Positions 9,858-55,300 of a stretch of 64,000 nt of DNA are shown one piece after another (position 1 is the stretch's first letter; every line of letters begins with the position of its first letter). The notes beneath the pieces were generated by a model that saw only the letters and a list, made by a program, of their open reading frames with translations, made no database searches and was not told the DNA's origin. Source of the stretch: Candidatus Uhrbacteria bacterium RIFCSPHIGHO2_02_FULL_46_47 (GTDB lineage: Bacteria > Patescibacteriota > Patescibacteriia > GWA2-47-26); contig MGDU01000020.1 in the NCBI GenBank assembly GCA_001790815.1, positions 14,277 through 78,276 on the forward strand. The letters run 5' to 3'. A program made the position numbers and the translations under genes.

Positions 9858-10196
9858 TTAAGGGTATACACGCCGCGCATCTTTATAAATACGGCGCAAA
9901 TTCGGAGATTCACTTTTTTTAAGATCGGCAAATTCCTTGGCAGTCAGTCCGATAATATCCATTGGCACTTGCAACGCCGAACCGCGGCGCATGCTATTAA
10001 GAAGCTGAAGCCGTTCCATAAGCGGCATACGCGCGAAATCCGGAGAAAGCACAATAAGATCAATATCACTGTCGTAGCGCATCTGACCCCGCGCACTACT
10101 GCCAAACAATACTACCTCCTCTACTTGTACCGCAGAAGCAATACTCTTAGCGTAATCGCGAGCTATTTTTTTTGCATTAATGCGTTCTCTATCCAT
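9858..10196 (-). CDS. Minimal nucleotidyltransferase (MNT) antitoxin of a HEPN/MNT module
   Basis: GSSARGQMRYDSDIDLIV is the nucleotidyltransferase GS...DxD motif. It overlaps the HEPN gene by 34 nt, a typical TA operon arrangement. Confidence 0.8.
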   Translation of the reverse strand: MDRERINAKKIARDYAKSIASAVQVEEVVLFGSSARGQMRYDSDIDLIVLSPDFARMPLMERLQLLNSMRRGSALQVPMDIIGLTAKEFADLKKSESPNLRRIYKDARRVYP

Positions 10197-11071: not shown

Positions 11072-11169
11072 ATTGATTATGATACGAATCTACAAATGAT
11101 TGGCGAATCTTCGAATATGCGAATTCGTATATTGGTAGATTCGTCATTAATTCGCTGATTCGTATCGTA

Positions 11170-15865: not shown

Positions 15866-16012
15866 TGTAAGTTTTAGTCAAAAATGTATGCATTTTTTAC
15901 AAAAAAATAGAATCGCTCATTGGCGAATATTCGCTAGAATAAGCAATCTTTGACAAGTTTGATATTCTATTTTTTTGTAAATTTTGAGTCTAAATTTGAC
16001 TAAAACTTACAC
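15866..16012. repeat. 147-bp quasi-palindromic foldback repeat unit (copy 1)
   Basis: Near-perfect reverse complement of 16639-16787. Termini are GTAAGTTTTAGTC...GACTAAAACTTAC, with the internal palindrome GCGAATATTCGC. Confidence 0.9.
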
Positions 16013-16022
16013 CTTTCGCTAT

Positions 16023-16613
16023 TCAGCATCGCAGCGCTTCCGTGTAGCGCGCATTCAAGAGGAGCGCGTCAATTTGCGAATCAATCAGTGGAATGAAACG
16101 GCGGTCAATGCGTACGAATTTACGGCAAGGAACCTCGAGAAAGTAAAGCTCGCCCGGCATCTCATCAGGAACCCTGAATCCGGAAAGTCCGCGTTCTGAT
16201 GTGAAGGGATTTCGGTAATCACGAAAGAGAACGTATTGGTTCTGCTCAATCCAGGCGTCCAGACTGCCGAACGGTTCATATGTAGCGGGCTCATGAAAGA
16301 AGAGAAGACTCAAATAGGTGTCGCTGTCTTTCATGGGTGATGGCGCGAGTACAATGAGAGAAATGCGTGTCTGATCTTGTGGGCGCGCGATTAGCCAGCC
16401 GGATGGTACGTCAAAGGCAATTGGACCTAGTTCGATCGACATTGCATCGATGGGGGTGACAGTCGGAGTCGGTCTATGACGGTGGCTTCCGAGTGCCCAC
16501 GCAGTGGGAAGCCCAATGAGGCTGACAAGCGCCAAAAAGGCTGCAACCACCCAGGGTCGCCCGCAAGTGTGTAAGCTGCTACTTGGCACCATATATTTCC
16601 AATTTACTCCCAT
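16023..16613 (-). CDS. Hypothetical secreted protein (signal peptide), GC-rich cassette
   Basis: N-terminal ...VVAAFLALVSLIGLPTAWA. Flanked on both sides by the 147-bp repeat units. Confidence 0.55.
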   Translation of the reverse strand: MGVNWKYMVPSSSLHTCGRPWVVAAFLALVSLIGLPTAWALGSHRHRPTPTVTPIDAMSIELGPIAFDVPSGWLIARPQDQTRISLIVLAPSPMKDSDTYLSLLFFHEPATYEPFGSLDAWIEQNQYVLFRDYRNPFTSERGLSGFRVPDEMPGELYFLEVPCRKFVRIDRRFIPLIDSQIDALLLNARYTEALRC

Positions 16614-16638: not shown

Positions 16639-16787
16639 TCTGTAAGTTTTAGTCAAATTTAGACTCAAAATTTACAAAAAAATAGAATATCAAACTTGTC
16701 AAAGATTGCTTATTCTAGCGAATATTCGCCAATGAGCGATTCTATTTTTTTGTAAAAAATGCATACATTTTCGACTCAAACTTACAG
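16639..16787. repeat. 147-bp foldback repeat unit (copy 2, inverted relative to copy 1)
   Basis: Reverse complement of 15866-16012 with only a few mismatches. Confidence 0.9.
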
Positions 16788-26246: not shown

Positions 26247-26327
26247 AAAATTACAACACACAATGCGCGGGGGCTTGCCTGCCCCGCACCGAGCTTTGCT
26301 CTGGTGCGTTGGGTCCCCCGTTAAAAA

Positions 26328-26365
26328 TTATGTCAACTGTGAGCGATCGTTTATATTTGACATAA
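26328..26365. promoter_or_regulatory. Conserved 38-nt palindromic motif TTATGTCAA-N20-TTGACATAA (copy 1 of 4)
   Basis: Identical core at 53858-53895 and 63147-63184, and a diverged copy at 41245-41288. All copies lie next to GC-rich islands. Confidence 0.6.
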
Positions 26366-26366
26366 T

Positions 26367-26882
26367 TTATTTTCCGTGTCGTAATACATATAAGGCCACA
26401 CCGGCGGCGACGGAAACATTGAGAGATTCTTTTTGGCCAAGCATGGGGATTTCAACTACAGCATCTACGCGTTTGAGCACGCCGTCTGATACGCCATTGA
26501 CTTCATTGCCAACCACAAGAGCAAGTGGAAATTTGGGATGCCAACTATCAATTGTAGCCGCAGGCTTTAGCCTGCGTTCTTGTCTTGGTGCGCCGGCTAA
26601 AGACCGGCGACTACGATCGAGCATATTATTTTCCAATGCCACCACATATATGCCTTGCGCTTTTAACTCTTCCACAACTTTCCAAGTCTGTCCCCTTTTT
26701 TCCCATGGCACTGTTTTTTCCGCACCTAACGCAACTTTACTAATTTCTTTTCGCGGCGGCGCTCCTGTATAGCCGCAAAGATAGATTTTTTTTACGCCAA
26801 ACGCGTCCGCAGTACGAAAAAGTGACCCAACATTATAAAGACTGCGAACACGATCTACAATAAGATATACTTCCCTGTGCAT
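26367..26882 (-). CDS. SpoU/TrmH-family RNA 2'-O-methyltransferase
   Basis: ...LIVDRVRSLYNVGSLFRTADAFGVKKIYLCGYTG... is the SPOUT fold. It contains an in-frame family-D hairpin pair (26554-26614). Confidence 0.8.
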   Translation of the reverse strand: MHREVYLIVDRVRSLYNVGSLFRTADAFGVKKIYLCGYTGAPPRKEISKVALGAEKTVPWEKRGQTWKVVEELKAQGIYVVALENNMLDRSRRSLAGAPRQERRLKPAATIDSWHPKFPLALVVGNEVNGVSDGVLKRVDAVVEIPMLGQKESLNVSVAAGVALYVLRHGK

Positions 26883-27978: not shown

Positions 27979-28401
27979 ATGGCAAAGAAAGTAAAGACAG
28001 TCATTAAACTCCAAATTCCCGCAGGCAAGGCAAACCCCGCGCCTCCGGTTGGTCCAGCACTTGGTCAACATGGTCTTAACATTTCCGAGTTTTGCCAAAA
28101 ATTCAACGCCGCGACATCAAAGCTGGGCGATGATATTATTCCGGTTGAAATTACGGTTTTTGAAGACCGCACCTATACTTTCAAAACCAAAACTCCACCG
28201 GCATCTGAACTTTTGAAAAAAGCCGCCGGCATTACAAAAGGTTCTGGCAAGGCGCTTGTTGAAAAAGTCGGCAAAGTAACACGCGCGCAAATTCGCGAGA
28301 TTGCGGAGCGTAAACTTCCGGACTTAAATACTAAAGATGTTGAAGCCGCGATGCGCACCATTGAAGGCACCGCGAAACAGATGGGACTGGAAGTAGTATG
28401 A
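27979..28401 (+). CDS. rplK: 50S ribosomal protein L11
   Basis: [35 protein letters not shown]... is the L11 signature. Confidence 0.95.
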
Positions 28402-28504
28402 TACGAATCACCGAATATCTGACGAATCTGCGAATATACGAATTCGTTGATTCGCATATTTGTTGATTCGCCTAAAATTTGTAGATTCGTATCACATATA
28501 TTAT

Positions 28505-30674: not shown

Positions 30675-31001
30675 CTATTCCGTCGGTTTACTCTTCTTTT
30701 TTAATTGCTCTTCTCTTATTTTTTCTCTCAACTCCCCTGTTGCCATCTGCCCTAAAAGCGTCTTAGGTCTTGCTGGAGCCTCGCCTTTTTTATAAACACC
30801 ATGATTGCGCAAATCTTCTTCCGTTAACCCACCTTGCTTGCTTAACAACTTTCTCAACTCTAGCAAACCAAACATGGAGGATTTAGGCCTGCCCCATTCA
30901 TAGTCACCCTCTTCTGCTCCAATTTTACTTAGTTGTTCCTCACTTATAATTACAAAATCAGGTTGATGTTCTCTCATTTCGCTCATAGAAAAATTTTTCA
31001 A
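30675..31001 (-). CDS. Hypothetical small protein, paralogous promoter class A
   Basis: 108 aa. Its upstream region shares a DnaA-box/TTGCAAT/SSR promoter module with the gene at 54058..54423. Confidence 0.45.
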   Translation of the reverse strand: MKNFSMSEMREHQPDFVIISEEQLSKIGAEEGDYEWGRPKSSMFGLLELRKLLSKQGGLTEEDLRNHGVYKKGEAPARPKTLLGQMATGELREKIREEQLKKKSKPTE

Positions 31002-31171
31002 AAATTAATCCTACTAAAATCCTACTATATATATATATATGGATTGCAAGGGGGGGTGTGGATAACATAATAAACAGGGCGCAAACAAACCGCACGTACT
31101 TTGCGTTTGCGTCTTTAAACAAAAATCAAGCCCAGCCGGGCTTGCCTTTACAAAAAGCTTGCTAACTACTT

Positions 31172-33347: not shown

Positions 33348-33465
33348 AGATGTGATGCAAATCTACAAATCTTATGCTAATTTACAAATTGCGAATTTGT
33401 ATTTGTAGATTTGAATGACATTTGTATATTGGCATTGTAGCACAGTTATGATATAGTCCCCTAAT

Positions 33466-53734: not shown

Positions 53735-53857
53735 AATTCTCAAATTTCCTCCGGCCGCTACAAATCTGACACGAAACATAGTGCGCAGATTTTCTGCGCC
53801 CGCAGAATTTTGACTCACTAATTTTCTTACATATCAGGCGAGATACGTCTTTTAAAA

Positions 53858-53895
53858 TTATGTCAACTGTGAGCGATCGTTTATATTTGACATAA
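53858..53895. promoter_or_regulatory. Conserved 38-nt palindromic motif (copy 2)
   Basis: Identical to 26328-26365 over the full 38 nt. Confidence 0.6.
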
Positions 53896-54057
53896 TTCCA
53901 TTTTGCCGTGTACTACTGATCCTGCGGCAGATTCATTACGATCGTGGTATTCTTACCGCAAAATAACAGCACGATGAGATGTAAAAAATACAAAAGATCG
54001 CGGAGACTTTGCCCCGCGACCTAATTTTTCGAAAGTTAGGTTCACTCTAGAAAAAAG

Positions 54058-54423
54058 CTAATGCATTCCTTCAATAATATCAATTTCTGGTTTCTCTTTC
54101 ACATTTTTTTGGCTCATGTTTTTATATGCGGCCGCTTCTGCCATCTGTCTTGCTACATTGCTCTCCTTAATGCGCTTTGAGCCGATTCCCATTGCGGCCA
54201 AAAATTCTAACAATGGTTCTTGTGCCTCTGGCTTATTTGCTAAATCAAGATTAAGCAATTTATCAACAGTTTCTGTGCCAAGTTGTCCAAGAAAGTAATC
54301 AGCCTTTTCAGGTGATTTACCAGTATCTAAACCACTTACTCTCAGTCGAGATTCCTGTGCTTTTTCTGGAGCTTTCCCTGTTTCTGCGCCCGGTGGTCGA
54401 TATTTCCCTTCACCTTCTGGCAT
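54058..54423 (-). CDS. Hypothetical small protein, paralogous promoter class A
   Basis: 121 aa. Its upstream module is homologous to that of 30675..31001 but is interrupted by a MITE. Confidence 0.45.
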   Translation of the reverse strand: MPEGEGKYRPPGAETGKAPEKAQESRLRVSGLDTGKSPEKADYFLGQLGTETVDKLLNLDLANKPEAQEPLLEFLAAMGIGSKRIKESNVARQMAEAAAYKNMSQKNVKEKPEIDIIEGMH

Positions 54424-54483
54424 AAAATGTTTTCCTAAAAATTATTTCCTTACTAAAATCCTACTCTCTCTCTGGATTGCAAG

Positions 54484-54621
54484 CCCAGTAGTAGAAGTTC
54501 AACTTTGTGCGCGTCAAGCGCGCATTATGAAAATCATTTGTTTGACACCACTTTCCCTTTAAAATAAGGCATTTTAGGGCATGCGAATATAGTTATTTGC
54601 CTGTTGAACTTTCACTACTGG
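54484..54621. mobile_element. 138-bp MITE-like insertion with ~19-bp terminal inverted repeats and a 5-bp target-site duplication (GCAAG)
   Basis: TIRs are CCCAGTAGTAGAAGTTCAAC ... GTTGAACTTTCACTACTGG. The uninterrupted paralogous site at 31041-31060 (GGATTGCAAG|GGGGGGTG) shows the empty target. Confidence 0.7.
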
Positions 54622-54900
54622 GCAAGGGGGGATGTGGATAACTTGGATGCCATTGCTTGACAAAAATGCGTAATATGGTATGCTGAATATGGTTATCAAT
54701 CCATGAGCCACACTCCTATCCGGAGTCAAAAAACAGTCCCGCATTTGCGGGATTGTTTTTCATATTCACAATTTTTGCTATACTTAAGAGTGCACGGAGT
54801 GGCTAGGAGGGTATTGCTATACAGTTTTATAGCCATGGATTGATAACCCATTGACCCCGAAAGGGGTGTGGTGCAACTCCACTGCCCTCCGTGTAAAAAT

Positions 54901-54938
54901 CCCCCCGATGTCCATCGGGGGGATTTTTATTTTCCAAA
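54901..54938. terminator. Bidirectional rho-independent terminator (TCCCCCCGATG-TC-CATCGGGGGGA)
   Basis: 11-bp GC-rich stem flanked by A5 and T-rich runs. Lies 3' of gene 54944..55300. Confidence 0.7.
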
Positions 54939-54943
54939 CTTTT

Positions 54944-55300
54944 TTATTCCTTCTCTTCTTCACCTTCAGTCTCCGCTTCTTCCTTTTTCTCGTGCTTTTT
55001 CTTTTTTGTCGTTTTGCGCTCGCCTCTGCGATCCATTAAGTAACTCCCTACGTATTTAACTCCTTCGGCAATTCCGGCAAAAACATTAAGCGAGCGCTCA
55101 AATTTTTCTTTCAAACTCTCAAAAATACCCAGGGCCTTATTTATTTTTTCCCGCACGTCTTTGGTCATCCCCCGCGCCTCACGCATGATGGAAATAAAAT
55201 AATACAAAAGCCAGCACACAAAAATGGTAAACCAGAGCACGGAAAACGCGAGGACTAGGTAAAAAATATCTTTTGCGTCGGAAATCATATGTTTTGTCAT
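54944..55300 (-). CDS. Hypothetical small membrane protein with an acidic/Lys-rich tail
   Basis: Two TM helices near the N-terminus. Confidence 0.45.
   Translation of the reverse strand: MTKHMISDAKDIFYLVLAFSVLWFTIFVCWLLYYFISIMREARGMTKDVREKINKALGIFESLKEKFERSLNVFAGIAEGVKYVGSYLMDRRGERKTTKKKKHEKKEEAETEGEEEKE

What the first reader, a model, noticed from the sequence alone, without database searches (positions are those of the whole stretch)
54484..54621. MITE insertion with a target-site duplication inside a conserved promoter module
The 138-bp element has ~19-bp TIRs (CCCAGTAGTAGAAGTTCAAC / GTTGAACTTTCACTACTGG), a 5-bp duplication GCAAG, and an internal hairpin TGCGCGTCAAGCGCGCA. It splits the TTGCAAG|GGGGG motif, which is uninterrupted at the paralogous locus (31041-31060). 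This gives a direct empty-site versus filled-site comparison within one window, and it likely inactivates or rewires the promoter of 54058..54423.
Basis: seen in the sequence. Interest (0 to 1): 0.65.

Follow-up and report, generated by a model that had tools for sequence, protein, structure and literature searches.

The report
Small mobile palindrome splitting a promoter
A 139-bp non-coding mobile element (a MITE) sits inside a promoter of an uncultured groundwater bacterium (Candidatus Uhrbacteria); it belongs to a previously undescribed family found in at least two lineages of these tiny-genome bacteria, so it is a real but fairly ordinary kind of feature.

Summary
The element is 139 bp (54484-54622). 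It has 20-bp terminal inverted repeats with 2 mismatches and a 4-bp target-site duplication, CAAG, not 5 bp. Removing the element plus one CAAG restores exactly the CCCCCTTGCAATCC junction seen in the empty paralog at 31041-31066.

The window comes from Candidatus Uhrbacteria RIFCSPLOWO2_01_FULL_47_24, a CPR (Candidate Phyla Radiation) bacterium. I found seven distinct family members:
- two in this Uhrbacteria genome;
- three within 14.7 kb of a Candidatus Nealsonbacteria contig;
- two on other metagenome contigs.

They are 66-139 bp long and share the repeat CCCRGTAG...CTACYGGG around unrelated interiors. Five of the seven have perfect 4-bp duplications (CAAG, TAAA, TCAA).

The second Uhrbacteria copy lies at the same position and in the same orientation in a paralogous promoter. 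Its orthologous site in a sister species is empty.

No transposase partner was found. The duplication regenerates the TTGCAA hexamer on the gene side, so inactivation of the promoter is not shown. What is displaced is only the upstream CCACA/C-run block, by 143 bp.

Three features are unusual: the two arms covary, every copy keeps the same A·C plus G·T mismatch, and one promoter site was hit twice.

Verdict: a new member of a known kind, of moderate interest.

The parts
54484..54622 (+). The whole 139-bp non-coding element (MITE), shown with the 'AG' arm on the left
   Evidence: Every reading frame but one has stop codons, and the one open frame is only 46 codons with no start codon. The copy is 100% identical in the five other assemblies read.
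54484..54503 (+). Left terminal inverted repeat, CCCAGTAGTAGAAGTTCAAC ('AG' arm)
   Evidence: The same arm, or covarying variants of it, is present in all 7 family members.
54603..54622 (+). Right terminal inverted repeat, GTTGAACTTTCACTACTGGG ('GA' arm; reverse complement CCCAGTAGTGAAAGTTCAAC)
   Evidence: It differs from the left arm at positions 10-11 in all 7 copies.
54508..54524 (+). Internal G+C-rich hairpin, TGCGCG-TCAAG-CGCGCA, next to the left arm
   Evidence: Six of the 7 copies have a small G+C-rich hairpin of different sequence beside one arm.
54480..54483 (+). Left copy of the 4-bp target-site duplication, CAAG
54623..54626 (+). Right copy of the 4-bp target-site duplication, CAAG
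54424..54483 (-). Gene-proximal half of the promoter module. On the - strand it reads CTTGCAATCCA(GA)4G-TAGGATTTTAGTAAGG..., up to the ATG at 54423. The TTGCAA hexamer (54477-54482) is regenerated by the duplication.
54627..54642 (-). Displaced upstream half of the module. On the - strand it reads GTTATCCACATCCCCC (a DnaA-box-like TTATCCACA plus a C-run). It now lies 143 bp further from the hexamer.
   Evidence: The same CCACA + C-run block precedes TTGACA in other promoters of this organism.
54058..54423 (-). 121-aa orphan gene downstream of the split promoter
   Evidence: It has no Pfam or NCBIfam family, and the homology search found only the protein itself.
31041..31066 (+). Empty paralogous target site, GGATTGCAAGGGGGGGTGTGGATAAC, upstream of an unrelated 103-aa gene (30675-30986, - strand)

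Best explanation
The element is a non-autonomous, cut-or-copy transposable element of the MITE type. Its two 20-bp terminal repeats would be the sites recognised by a transposase supplied from elsewhere. Integration through a 4-bp staggered cut duplicated CAAG.

Here it landed between the upstream CCACA/C-run block and the TTGCAA hexamer of a promoter type that this Uhrbacterium uses in front of several small, fast-evolving orphan genes. Because the duplicated CTTG overlaps the hexamer, an intact TTGCAA is rebuilt next to the gene. The core promoter half is therefore kept, and only the upstream block is moved 143 bp away.

Shown:
- the anatomy of the element;
- membership of a family with 7 distinct copies in at least two CPR lineages;
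- variable-sequence 4-bp duplications;
- filled versus empty sites, both paralogous and orthologous.

Inferred:
- that a DDE-type transposase did the moving (none was found);
- that the insertion changes regulation rather than abolishing expression;
- that the double hit on one promoter position reflects target preference.
For: - Repeats 18/20 complementary, with none in shuffles.
- Family members: the second Uhrbacteria locus (L022, also held as L048-L055, 137 bp), L029/L063 (78 bp), L063:2828-2906 (79 bp), L063:14158-14233 (76 bp), L035 (66 bp) and L020 (88 bp).
- L022's neighbouring gene is A3B21_05200 of the same organism as the window. L029 is from Candidatus Nealsonbacteria.
- Flanking 4-mers are CAAG|CAAG, CAAG|CAAG, TAAA|TAAA, TCAA|TCAA, TAAA|TAAA, CAAA|TAAA and TGAA|CAAG, so 5 of 7 are perfect and the sequences differ between sites.
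- Excising the element plus one CTTG in silico restores the empty junction.
- The orthologous promoter in a sister species is empty (L047; the downstream protein is 62% identical). Further empty modules are L048:6763, L043 and L060.
- The element cannot encode a protein. All seven copies are intergenic; one end of L020 and of L063:2828-2906 overlaps the 3' end of the adjacent ORF by up to ~34 bp.
- The two same-genome copies share 39/40 repeat bases but only 61% of the interior (shuffled 49 ± 2.5%). They are therefore distinct family members, not a recent duplication.
Against: - No transposase carrying these repeats was found. There is none in the window, none in about 55 kb of extra DNA from the same genome, none on the Nealsonbacteria contig apart from an IS110-type gene whose family makes neither terminal repeats nor duplications, and no long element among 37 exact repeat hits in two large collections.
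- Only 2 copies were seen in about 120 kb of this genome.
- Two independent hits at exactly the same base and orientation of paralogous promoters are unexpected for an element whose other targets are just A-rich 4-mers.
- The arms covary between copies (6 of 20 pairs changed on both sides), yet an A·C mismatch plus a G·T pair is invariant in 7/7. This could equally mean selection on a folded structure.
- The duplicated 4-mer always reads A-rich on the same strand relative to the AG/GA arm asymmetry (6-7 of 7). That is unusual for DDE transposition.
Confidence: 0.75

Rival explanations
1. The element is a domesticated or selected structural element. Whatever its origin, the 20-bp stem with its fixed mismatch is kept by selection. 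It would act as a cis-acting hairpin or cruciform, for example an insulator or spacer between the upstream CCACA/C-run block and the core promoter, or an RNA stem that stabilises or terminates transcripts. The 'empty' promoters would then simply be versions without this optional part.
For: - Within one genome the arms are 39/40 identical while the interior is near saturation at 61%.
- The arms covary: 6/20 pairs changed on both sides, with 0-1 of 500 shuffles reaching that value. An A·C mismatch and a G·T pair are invariant in 7/7 copies.
- Folding is strong (z -5.7 to -7.5).
- Position and orientation are the same in two promoters.
- Both copies are fixed and identical in every assembly read.
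Against: - Covariation of the two ends is also what a shared transposase-binding site predicts, so it does not discriminate between the two ideas.
- The copies sit in unrelated contexts: between convergent genes, between co-directional genes, 7 bp before a start codon, and inside promoters.
- Variable-sequence 4-bp direct repeats flank 5 of 7 copies. A selected motif does not need them.
- The interior varies from 26 to 99 bp with no conserved sequence.
Confidence: 0.14
2. The element is a substrate of a structure-specific, single-strand DNA recombinase, as with REP/REPIN elements and their RAYT transposase, IS200/IS605 ends, or integron attC sites. It would be recognised as a folded hairpin with its diagnostic mismatch, not as double-stranded repeats.
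For: - Each arm contains GTAG, the conserved head of REP sequences (from my own knowledge of Nunvar 2010 and Bertels & Rainey 2011; not retrieved here).
- The inner arm fits the attC core consensus GTTRRRY / RYYYAAC (GTTGAAC / GTTCAAC, read).
- A fixed mismatch sits inside a covarying stem.
- The target 4-mer has a consistent polarity relative to element orientation.
- The overall length (66-139 bp) and the variable centre resemble attC.
Against: - These systems do not make target-site duplications of variable sequence, yet 5/7 copies have them.
- The arms are not themselves hairpins, as REPs are.
- The GTTRRRY boxes are at the inner end of the stem, not the outer end.
- There is no cassette array, integron integrase or Y1/HUH gene in about 135 kb examined.
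- Only one copy occurs in the 64-kb window.
Confidence: 0.08
3. The second filled promoter arose by gene conversion or recombination between paralogous promoter modules, which copied an element already resident in another module. It would not be a second transposition into the same site.
For: - Both filled sites share the identical 16-nt flank CTTGCAATCCAGAGAG, whereas the ortholog L047 reads TTGACTTTCAGAGAG at that place.
- The insertion point and orientation are identical.
Against: - The two resident copies differ by about 39% in the interior, so neither is the donor of the other. A third, unseen donor would be required.
- This concerns only how the element spread within the genome, not what the element is.
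Confidence: 0.2

Closest known systems
Correia elements (NEMIS/CREE) of Neisseria
   Same: Both are 100-160-bp non-coding elements with about 20-26-bp terminal inverted repeats and a short duplication. Both have repeat subtypes, no known autonomous transposase, and frequent insertion next to or inside promoters, where expression can be altered. They also fold into long hairpins. (The comparison rests on my own knowledge, not on a test here.)
   Different: Correia repeats have a different sequence. They duplicate TA (2 bp) rather than 4 bp, carry an IHF site and outward promoters, and occur in hundreds of copies. Here only 2 copies were seen in about 120 kb. The host is a CPR bacterium, and an invariant A·C/G·T mismatch marks the arms.
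IS-derived bacterial MITEs with a known parent (e.g. RUP / IS630-Spn1, Nezha / ISNpu3-like, IS5- or IS1380-type MITEs)
   Same: They share a small size, repeats copied from a parent IS, and a target-site duplication of fixed length. A 4-bp length is typical of IS5, IS701 and IS1380-type families (from memory).
   Different: No parent IS with these repeats was found in any scan. The duplication consensus (YAAR or TCAA, read on one strand) is not palindromic like the YTAR of IS5.
REPINs (REP doublets) mobilised by RAYT transposases
   Same: Both are inverted doublets that form a long imperfect hairpin, contain a GTAG motif, and lie between genes.
   Different: REP units are themselves hairpins, they leave no duplication, and they come with a RAYT gene. 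Here the arms are not self-complementary, 4-bp duplications are present, and no RAYT was seen.
Integron attC sites
   Same: The length range (57-141 bp versus 66-139 bp) is similar. Both have conserved imperfect inverted ends around a variable centre, conserved unpaired bases, and GTTRRRY/RYYYAAC-like heptamers.
   Different: Here the heptamers are at the inner end of the stem. There are no cassette arrays and no integrase, and flanking direct repeats of variable sequence are present.

Membership tests
MITE (miniature inverted-repeat transposable element; a structural class) | Small (<~600 bp) with no coding capacity | tested here: met
   Copies are 66-139 bp. Five of the six reading frames contain stop codons, and the remaining frame is only 46 codons with no start codon.
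MITE (miniature inverted-repeat transposable element; a structural class) | Terminal inverted repeats | tested here: met
   The arms are 20 bp and 16-18/20 complementary in six of the 7 copies; the seventh, L020, has a 1-base deletion in one arm.
MITE (miniature inverted-repeat transposable element; a structural class) | Target-site duplication of constant length whose sequence varies with the site | tested here: met
   The duplication is 4 bp. CAAG (twice), TAAA (twice) and TCAA are perfect, one copy matches 3/4 and one is degenerate.
MITE (miniature inverted-repeat transposable element; a structural class) | Filled and empty versions of the same site (evidence of insertion or excision) | tested here: met
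   Empty paralogs are at window 31041-31066 and L048:6763. The ortholog L047 and the relatives L043 and L060 are also empty. In-silico excision restores the junction.
MITE (miniature inverted-repeat transposable element; a structural class) | Several dispersed copies per genome | tested here: inconclusive
   I saw 2 copies in about 120 kb of the Uhrbacteria genome and 3 copies in 14.7 kb of a Nealsonbacteria contig. Whole genomes could not be scanned.
MITE (miniature inverted-repeat transposable element; a structural class) | An autonomous IS with the same terminal repeats (usual, but not obligatory) | tested here: not met
   No long element was found among 37 repeat hits in the genome and metagenome collections, and none in viral contigs, plasmids or phages. 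No transposase lies near the copies except an unrelated IS110 type.
REP/REPIN with RAYT | Each repeat unit is itself a short hairpin with a GTAG head, there is no target duplication, and a RAYT (Y1 HUH) gene is associated | tested here: not met
   GTAG is present, but the arms are not self-complementary. Duplications are present, and no HUH gene occurs in the DNA examined.
Integron attC | R''/R' boxes (RYYYAAC / GTTRRRY) at the outer ends, arrays of cassettes, and an IntI integrase nearby | tested here: not met
   The heptamers fit the consensus but lie at the inner end of the stem. There is a single copy in 64 kb and no integrase in the window.
IS200/IS605-derived elements (PATE) | Subterminal hairpins at each end, no terminal inverted repeats, no duplication, and insertion 3' of one fixed tetranucleotide | tested here: not met
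   Terminal inverted repeats are present, the flanking 4-mers vary, and only one internal hairpin is present.
IS110/IS1111-type non-autonomous element | No terminal inverted repeats, a constant short 'core' on both sides, and a DEDD recombinase | tested here: not met
   A DEDD transposase lies 2.2 kb from the L029/L063 copy. However, the element has 20-bp terminal repeats and variable flanking 4-mers.
Any described RNA family (Rfam 15) | A match to a curated covariance model | tested here: not met
   There are no matches at gathering score in the whole window. No E<=1 match falls on the element in 54400-55000; all hits there are terminator-like matches further right.

The most novel reading that the evidence does not exclude
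The family is not a conventional DDE-type MITE. Instead it would be a hairpin-recognised mobile element: the covarying 9+9-bp stem with an invariant A·C/G·T mismatch would be the recognition feature. It would insert directionally and, in Uhrbacteria, home to one position of a specific promoter class, between the CCACA/C-run upstream block and the TTGCAA hexamer. There it would act as a movable insulator or switch for small, fast-evolving orphan genes whose promoters also carry length-variable (GA)n/(TA)n spacers.
Probability: 0.12. Interest if true: 0.7.

Novelty: new member of a known kind. Interest (0 to 1): 0.42.

Why it matters
CPR (Patescibacteria) bacteria have very small genomes, and little is known about their mobile DNA or promoter architecture. 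Two full-text searches found no report of MITEs in them.

This family gives a concrete, datable case of gain or loss of a mobile element at a promoter in such a genome. Its repeats are shared almost unchanged between Uhrbacteria and Nealsonbacteria, which points to exchange between lineages or to strong constraint.

As a by-product the work defines a promoter type: a CCACA/C-run block, a TTGCAA or TTGACA hexamer, and a dinucleotide tract of variable length. That type could be tested against the Rifle aquifer metatranscriptomes.

If the same-site, same-orientation double insertion reflects real targeting, the element would be a natural tool for studying promoter rewiring in organisms that cannot be cultured.

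Tried and rejected
- **Repeat scan of 185,579 species genomes.** It gave 11 single hits. My own estimate of the chance expectation is about 17 (18 fixed bases, 596 Gb, both strands). None shows element-like similarity beyond the repeat. One is a tRNA-Arg of a Paceibacterales genome whose anticodon-stem/variable-loop/T-arm happens to match 19/20. I treated this as chance, because the element cannot form a T-arm.
- **Metagenome repeat scan.** It gave 26 hits, of which 4 are real. About ten near-identical soil contigs share a coding sequence that matches by chance.
- **Other collections.** Viral contigs, plasmids and phages gave nothing.
- **Sigma-54 reading of TTGCA.** Rejected, because there is no GG 10 nt upstream.
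- **TTGCAA as the -35 of a fixed sigma-70 promoter.** This is doubtful. The spacing to the TAGGAT or TACTAT hexamer is 12, 13, 15, 15, 17, 19 and 21 nt in different modules.
- **An outward or internal promoter in the element.** Only one weak 9/12 consensus match was found, and it is not conserved in the second copy.
- **The internal hairpin as a terminator.** There is no clear T-run in the window copy.
- **Synteny or homology between the genes behind the three modules.** None was found.
- **A link between the element and the IS110 transposase in L029/L063.** No shared ends were seen.
- **The motif CTCTCTGGATTG.** It also occurs about 100 bp from the L029 copy, and in degraded form 14 bp from the L035 copy. 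This is unexplained and could be chance.
- **Population-level empty alleles at the window site.** None occurs among the assemblies shown, but most similar places were collapsed by the tool.

Full report
**Observation**

The sequence at 54484-54622 is as described. CCCAGTAGTAGAAGTTCAAC (54484-54503) and its inverted partner (54603-54622) match at 18 of 20 positions, and 100 dinucleotide-preserving shuffles gave no such match. The repeat finder reports the same pair. The internal hairpin TGCGCG-TCAAG-CGCGCA (54508-54524) is present, and the whole element folds far better than shuffles (z -5.7 as DNA, -6.5 as RNA).

The flanks read ...TGGATTGCAAG | element | CAAGGGGGGATGTGGATAAC. The uninterrupted version GGATTGCAAGGGGGGGTGTGGATAAC occurs once, at 31041-31066. 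Two details need correcting. The symmetric element is 139 bp, and the duplication is 4 bp (CAAG at 54480-54483 and 54623-54626).

**Source and setting**

The 121-aa protein encoded at 54058-54423 is 'hypothetical protein A3B21_02025' of Candidatus Uhrbacteria bacterium RIFCSPLOWO2_01_FULL_47_24, a CPR bacterium from the Rifle aquifer study. The window lies on MGEO01000006.1. The surroundings are housekeeping chromosome: dnaE, pheS, pheT, gyrB, ribosomal proteins, thyA and others, with no transposase. The five other assemblies read at this locus all carry the element with 100% identity.

**The element belongs to a family**

Exact scans with CCCAGTAGTNNAAGTTCAAC gave 11 hits in 185,579 species genomes and 26 in metagenome contigs. 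Most are single chance matches. My own estimate of the chance expectation for the genome set is about 17.

Four hits carry both repeats at short distance. Fetching more DNA around one of them revealed two more diverged copies. The seven distinct members are:

| Copy | Location | Length | Flanking 4-mers (AG arm on the left) |
|---|---|---|---|
| Uhr1 | window 54484-54622 | 139 bp | CAAG / CAAG |
| Uhr2 | L022:1314-1450 (also held as L048-L055) | 137 bp | CAAG / CAAG |
| Neal1 | L063:7234-7311 (also L029:956-1033) | 78 bp | CAAA / TAAA |
| Neal2 | L063:2828-2906 | 79 bp | TAAA / TAAA |
| Neal3 | L063:14158-14233 | 76 bp | TCAA / TCAA |
| L035 | L035:591-656 | 66 bp | TAAA / TAAA |
| L020 | L020:2425-2512 | 88 bp | TGAA / CAAG |

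L029/L063 is from Candidatus Nealsonbacteria. The gene next to the L022 copy is A3B21_05200 of the same Uhrbacterium as the window.

The interiors range from 26 to 99 bp and cannot be aligned between lineages. Five of the seven copies have perfect 4-bp direct repeats, and the repeat sequence differs from site to site. That is the signature of a staggered-cut insertion, not of a fixed recombination core.

**Filled versus empty sites**

Removing the element plus one CTTG from both Uhrbacteria copies gives exactly ...CCCCCTTGCAATCC..., the junction of the empty module at 31041-31066. Empty versions of the module exist at several other places:

- The second locus (L048) has a very close empty paralog of its own promoter at L048:6763, in front of a 190-aa gene.
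- The orthologous promoter of the 231-aa gene in a sister species is empty...TTTTCCACCCCCCTTGACTTTCAGAGAGAGAGAGTACTAT... (L047; protein 62% identical).
- Another relative is also empty (L060).
- The sister-species ortholog of the 103-aa gene's module is empty too (L043).

So the element was gained, or precisely lost, on a short evolutionary timescale.

**What the 'module' is**

The same block, TT(A/T)TCCACA followed by a C-run, lies directly upstream of a TTGCAA or TTGACA hexamer. It occurs in front of the 121-aa, 103-aa, 231-aa and 190-aa genes. It also occurs in front of a toxin-antitoxin operon (L048:8668, TTGACA-17-TATAGT) and at window 41651 on the - strand. It is therefore a general upstream promoter element of this organism.

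The proteins behind the modules are unrelated to one another and have no known families.

Between the hexamer and the TAGGAT or TACTAT hexamer lies a (GA)n or (TA)n tract. Its length gives spacers of 12, 13, 15, 15, 17, 19 and 21 nt in different modules. The simple -35/-10 reading therefore fits only some of them.

**Consequence of the insertion**

On the gene strand the filled site reads GTTATCCACATCCCCCCTTG[element]CTTGCAATCCAGAGAGAGAGTAGGAT.... The duplication rebuilds an intact TTGCAA next to the gene-proximal half, and only the CCACA/C-run block is displaced, by 143 bp. The ORF is intact in all five assemblies read at this locus, and a second gene carries the same arrangement. Inactivation is therefore not indicated. 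A change in regulation is possible but untested.

**Unusual features**

1. The two Uhrbacteria copies sit at the same base, in the same orientation, in paralogous promoters. Yet their interiors are only 61% identical (shuffled 49 ± 2.5%, maximum 58%), while the arms are 39/40 identical. They are thus not a recent duplicate of each other. The options are target preference, conversion from an unseen third copy, or selection.
2. Across the seven copies the arms covary. Six of 20 pairs changed on both sides, and 0-1 of 500 shuffles reach the observed values. Position 10 is nevertheless an A·C mismatch and position 11 a G·T pair in all seven. A transposase site shared by both ends predicts the covariation as well as a stem does, so this does not decide between them. 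The fixed asymmetry is unexplained.
3. When copies are oriented by that asymmetry, the duplicated 4-mer always reads A-rich on the same strand.
4. The arms are nearly identical between genomes of 34% and 46% G+C.

**Search for a partner enzyme**

None was found. There is no transposase in the window, in about 55 kb of additional DNA from the same genome, or beside the other copies. The one exception is an IS110-family gene 2.2 kb from Neal1, and its family makes neither terminal repeats nor duplications. No long element is bounded by the repeat among the collection hits. The element has no match in plasmids, phages or viral contigs and no Rfam match.

**Comparison with known systems**

By structure this meets the definition of a MITE. 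It is small and non-coding, has terminal inverted repeats, has a constant-length duplication of variable sequence, and shows filled and empty sites. Copy number per genome could not be established, and a parent IS was not found.

It works most like the Correia elements of Neisseria, which are promoter-proximal, have repeat subtypes and have no known transposase. It differs from them in repeat sequence, duplication length and host.

REPIN/RAYT, attC, IS200/IS605-derived and IS110-type readings each fail at least one defining feature that I tested. Two full-text literature searches returned nothing on MITEs in CPR bacteria.

**Verdict**

It is a new family of a known kind of element in an under-studied group. 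A few odd properties keep a more interesting reading alive at low probability: a same-site double hit, a fixed mismatch in a covarying stem, and directional targets.

Noticed in passing
window 54424-54483 and 30990-31050; L048:6763-6830 and 9944-10000; L047:379-445; L043:1412-1490; L060:195-280: The promoter modules contain a (GA)n or (TA)n tract whose length differs between paralogs and between related species, for example (TA)7 in the window against (TA)5 in L043. The resulting spacers between the TTGCAA-like hexamer and TAGGAT/TACTAT are 12, 13, 15, 15, 17, 19 and 21 nt. This looks like slippage-prone promoter spacing in front of small, fast-evolving orphan genes. No variation was seen among assemblies of the same species.
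   Followed up: partly
window 31057-31066, 54633-54642 and 41651 (- strand); L048:6763, 8668 and 9785: A conserved block, TT(A/T)TCCACA plus a C-run, lies immediately upstream of TTGCAA/TTGACA hexamers in several unrelated promoters. It may be an upstream promoter element or a regulator site of this Uhrbacterium. The perfect DnaA-box-like 9-mer TGTGGATAA occurs 5 times in the window against 0.46 expected.
   Followed up: partly
window 54657-54930 (+ strand): This is a candidate non-coding RNA region right next to the element. It has a strong sigma-70-like promoter (TTGACA-16-TGgTATGCT, 54657-54684), a perfect 15-bp inverted repeat (54691-54705 / 54834-54848), and two terminator-like hairpins (~54737-54760 and 54894-54929). 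The fold has z -7.3. ARAGORN calls an 86-nt 'tRNA-Ile(GAT)' with a long extra arm at 54806-54891, but Rfam's tRNA model does not match even at E<=1.
   Followed up: partly
window 15866-16011 and 16640-16787: Two inverted, roughly 95%-identical (judged by eye from the alignment) copies of a different 146-bp palindromic element (about 48-nt arms, TGTAAGTTTTAGTCAAA...) flank a 196-aa gene with no known family (16023-16613, - strand). This is a second MITE-like family, or a composite structure.
   Followed up: partly
window 26325-26368 and 53856-53897: A 44-bp imperfect palindrome (AAATTATGTCAACTGTGAGCGATCGTTTATATTTGACATAATT) is identical at two places with unrelated flanks. One is downstream of gyrB. 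The other lies between the 121-aa gene and dnaE.
   Followed up: partly
window 11078-11169, 28399-28494 and 33350-33421: Long imperfect palindromes rich in ACGAATC / AATCTACAAAT motifs lie directly upstream of rplJ and rplA, with a shorter one after the HAD hydrolase gene. They may be a shared operator or leader.
   Followed up: no
L029:1043-1075 and 1911-1945; L029:3205-4416 (also L063:9483-10694): In the Nealsonbacteria contig a PIN toxin-antitoxin pair is bracketed by direct repeats (TAACTNATTTCATAATAGCACTTTATTTT). An IS110-family transposase lies 2.2 kb from the element copy.
   Followed up: partly
L063:14158-14233 versus L067:9816-9891: The loop of the internal hairpin of the Neal3 copy is inverted between two strains (ttcgcctttggcgaa versus ttcgccaaaggcgaa). 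This is a small hairpin-loop inversion.
   Followed up: no
L029:1137-1148; L035:~562-575: The motif CTCTCTGGATTG abuts the element in both Uhrbacteria promoters. It also occurs about 100 bp from the L029 copy, and in degraded form 14 bp from the L035 copy. This is unexplained and may be chance.
   Followed up: partly
L011:~1378-1397 (Paceibacterales contig): The 'GA' arm of the repeat matches 19/20 bases of the anticodon-stem/variable-loop/T-arm part of a CPR tRNA-Arg(TCG) gene. I judged this a chance hit of the pattern scan.
   Followed up: partly
L048:13300-17400: The second Uhrbacteria locus contains a 23S rRNA region with an intervening-sequence protein and two LAGLIDADG homing-endonuclease ORFs. 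Such rRNA insertions are known in CPR bacteria.
   Followed up: no
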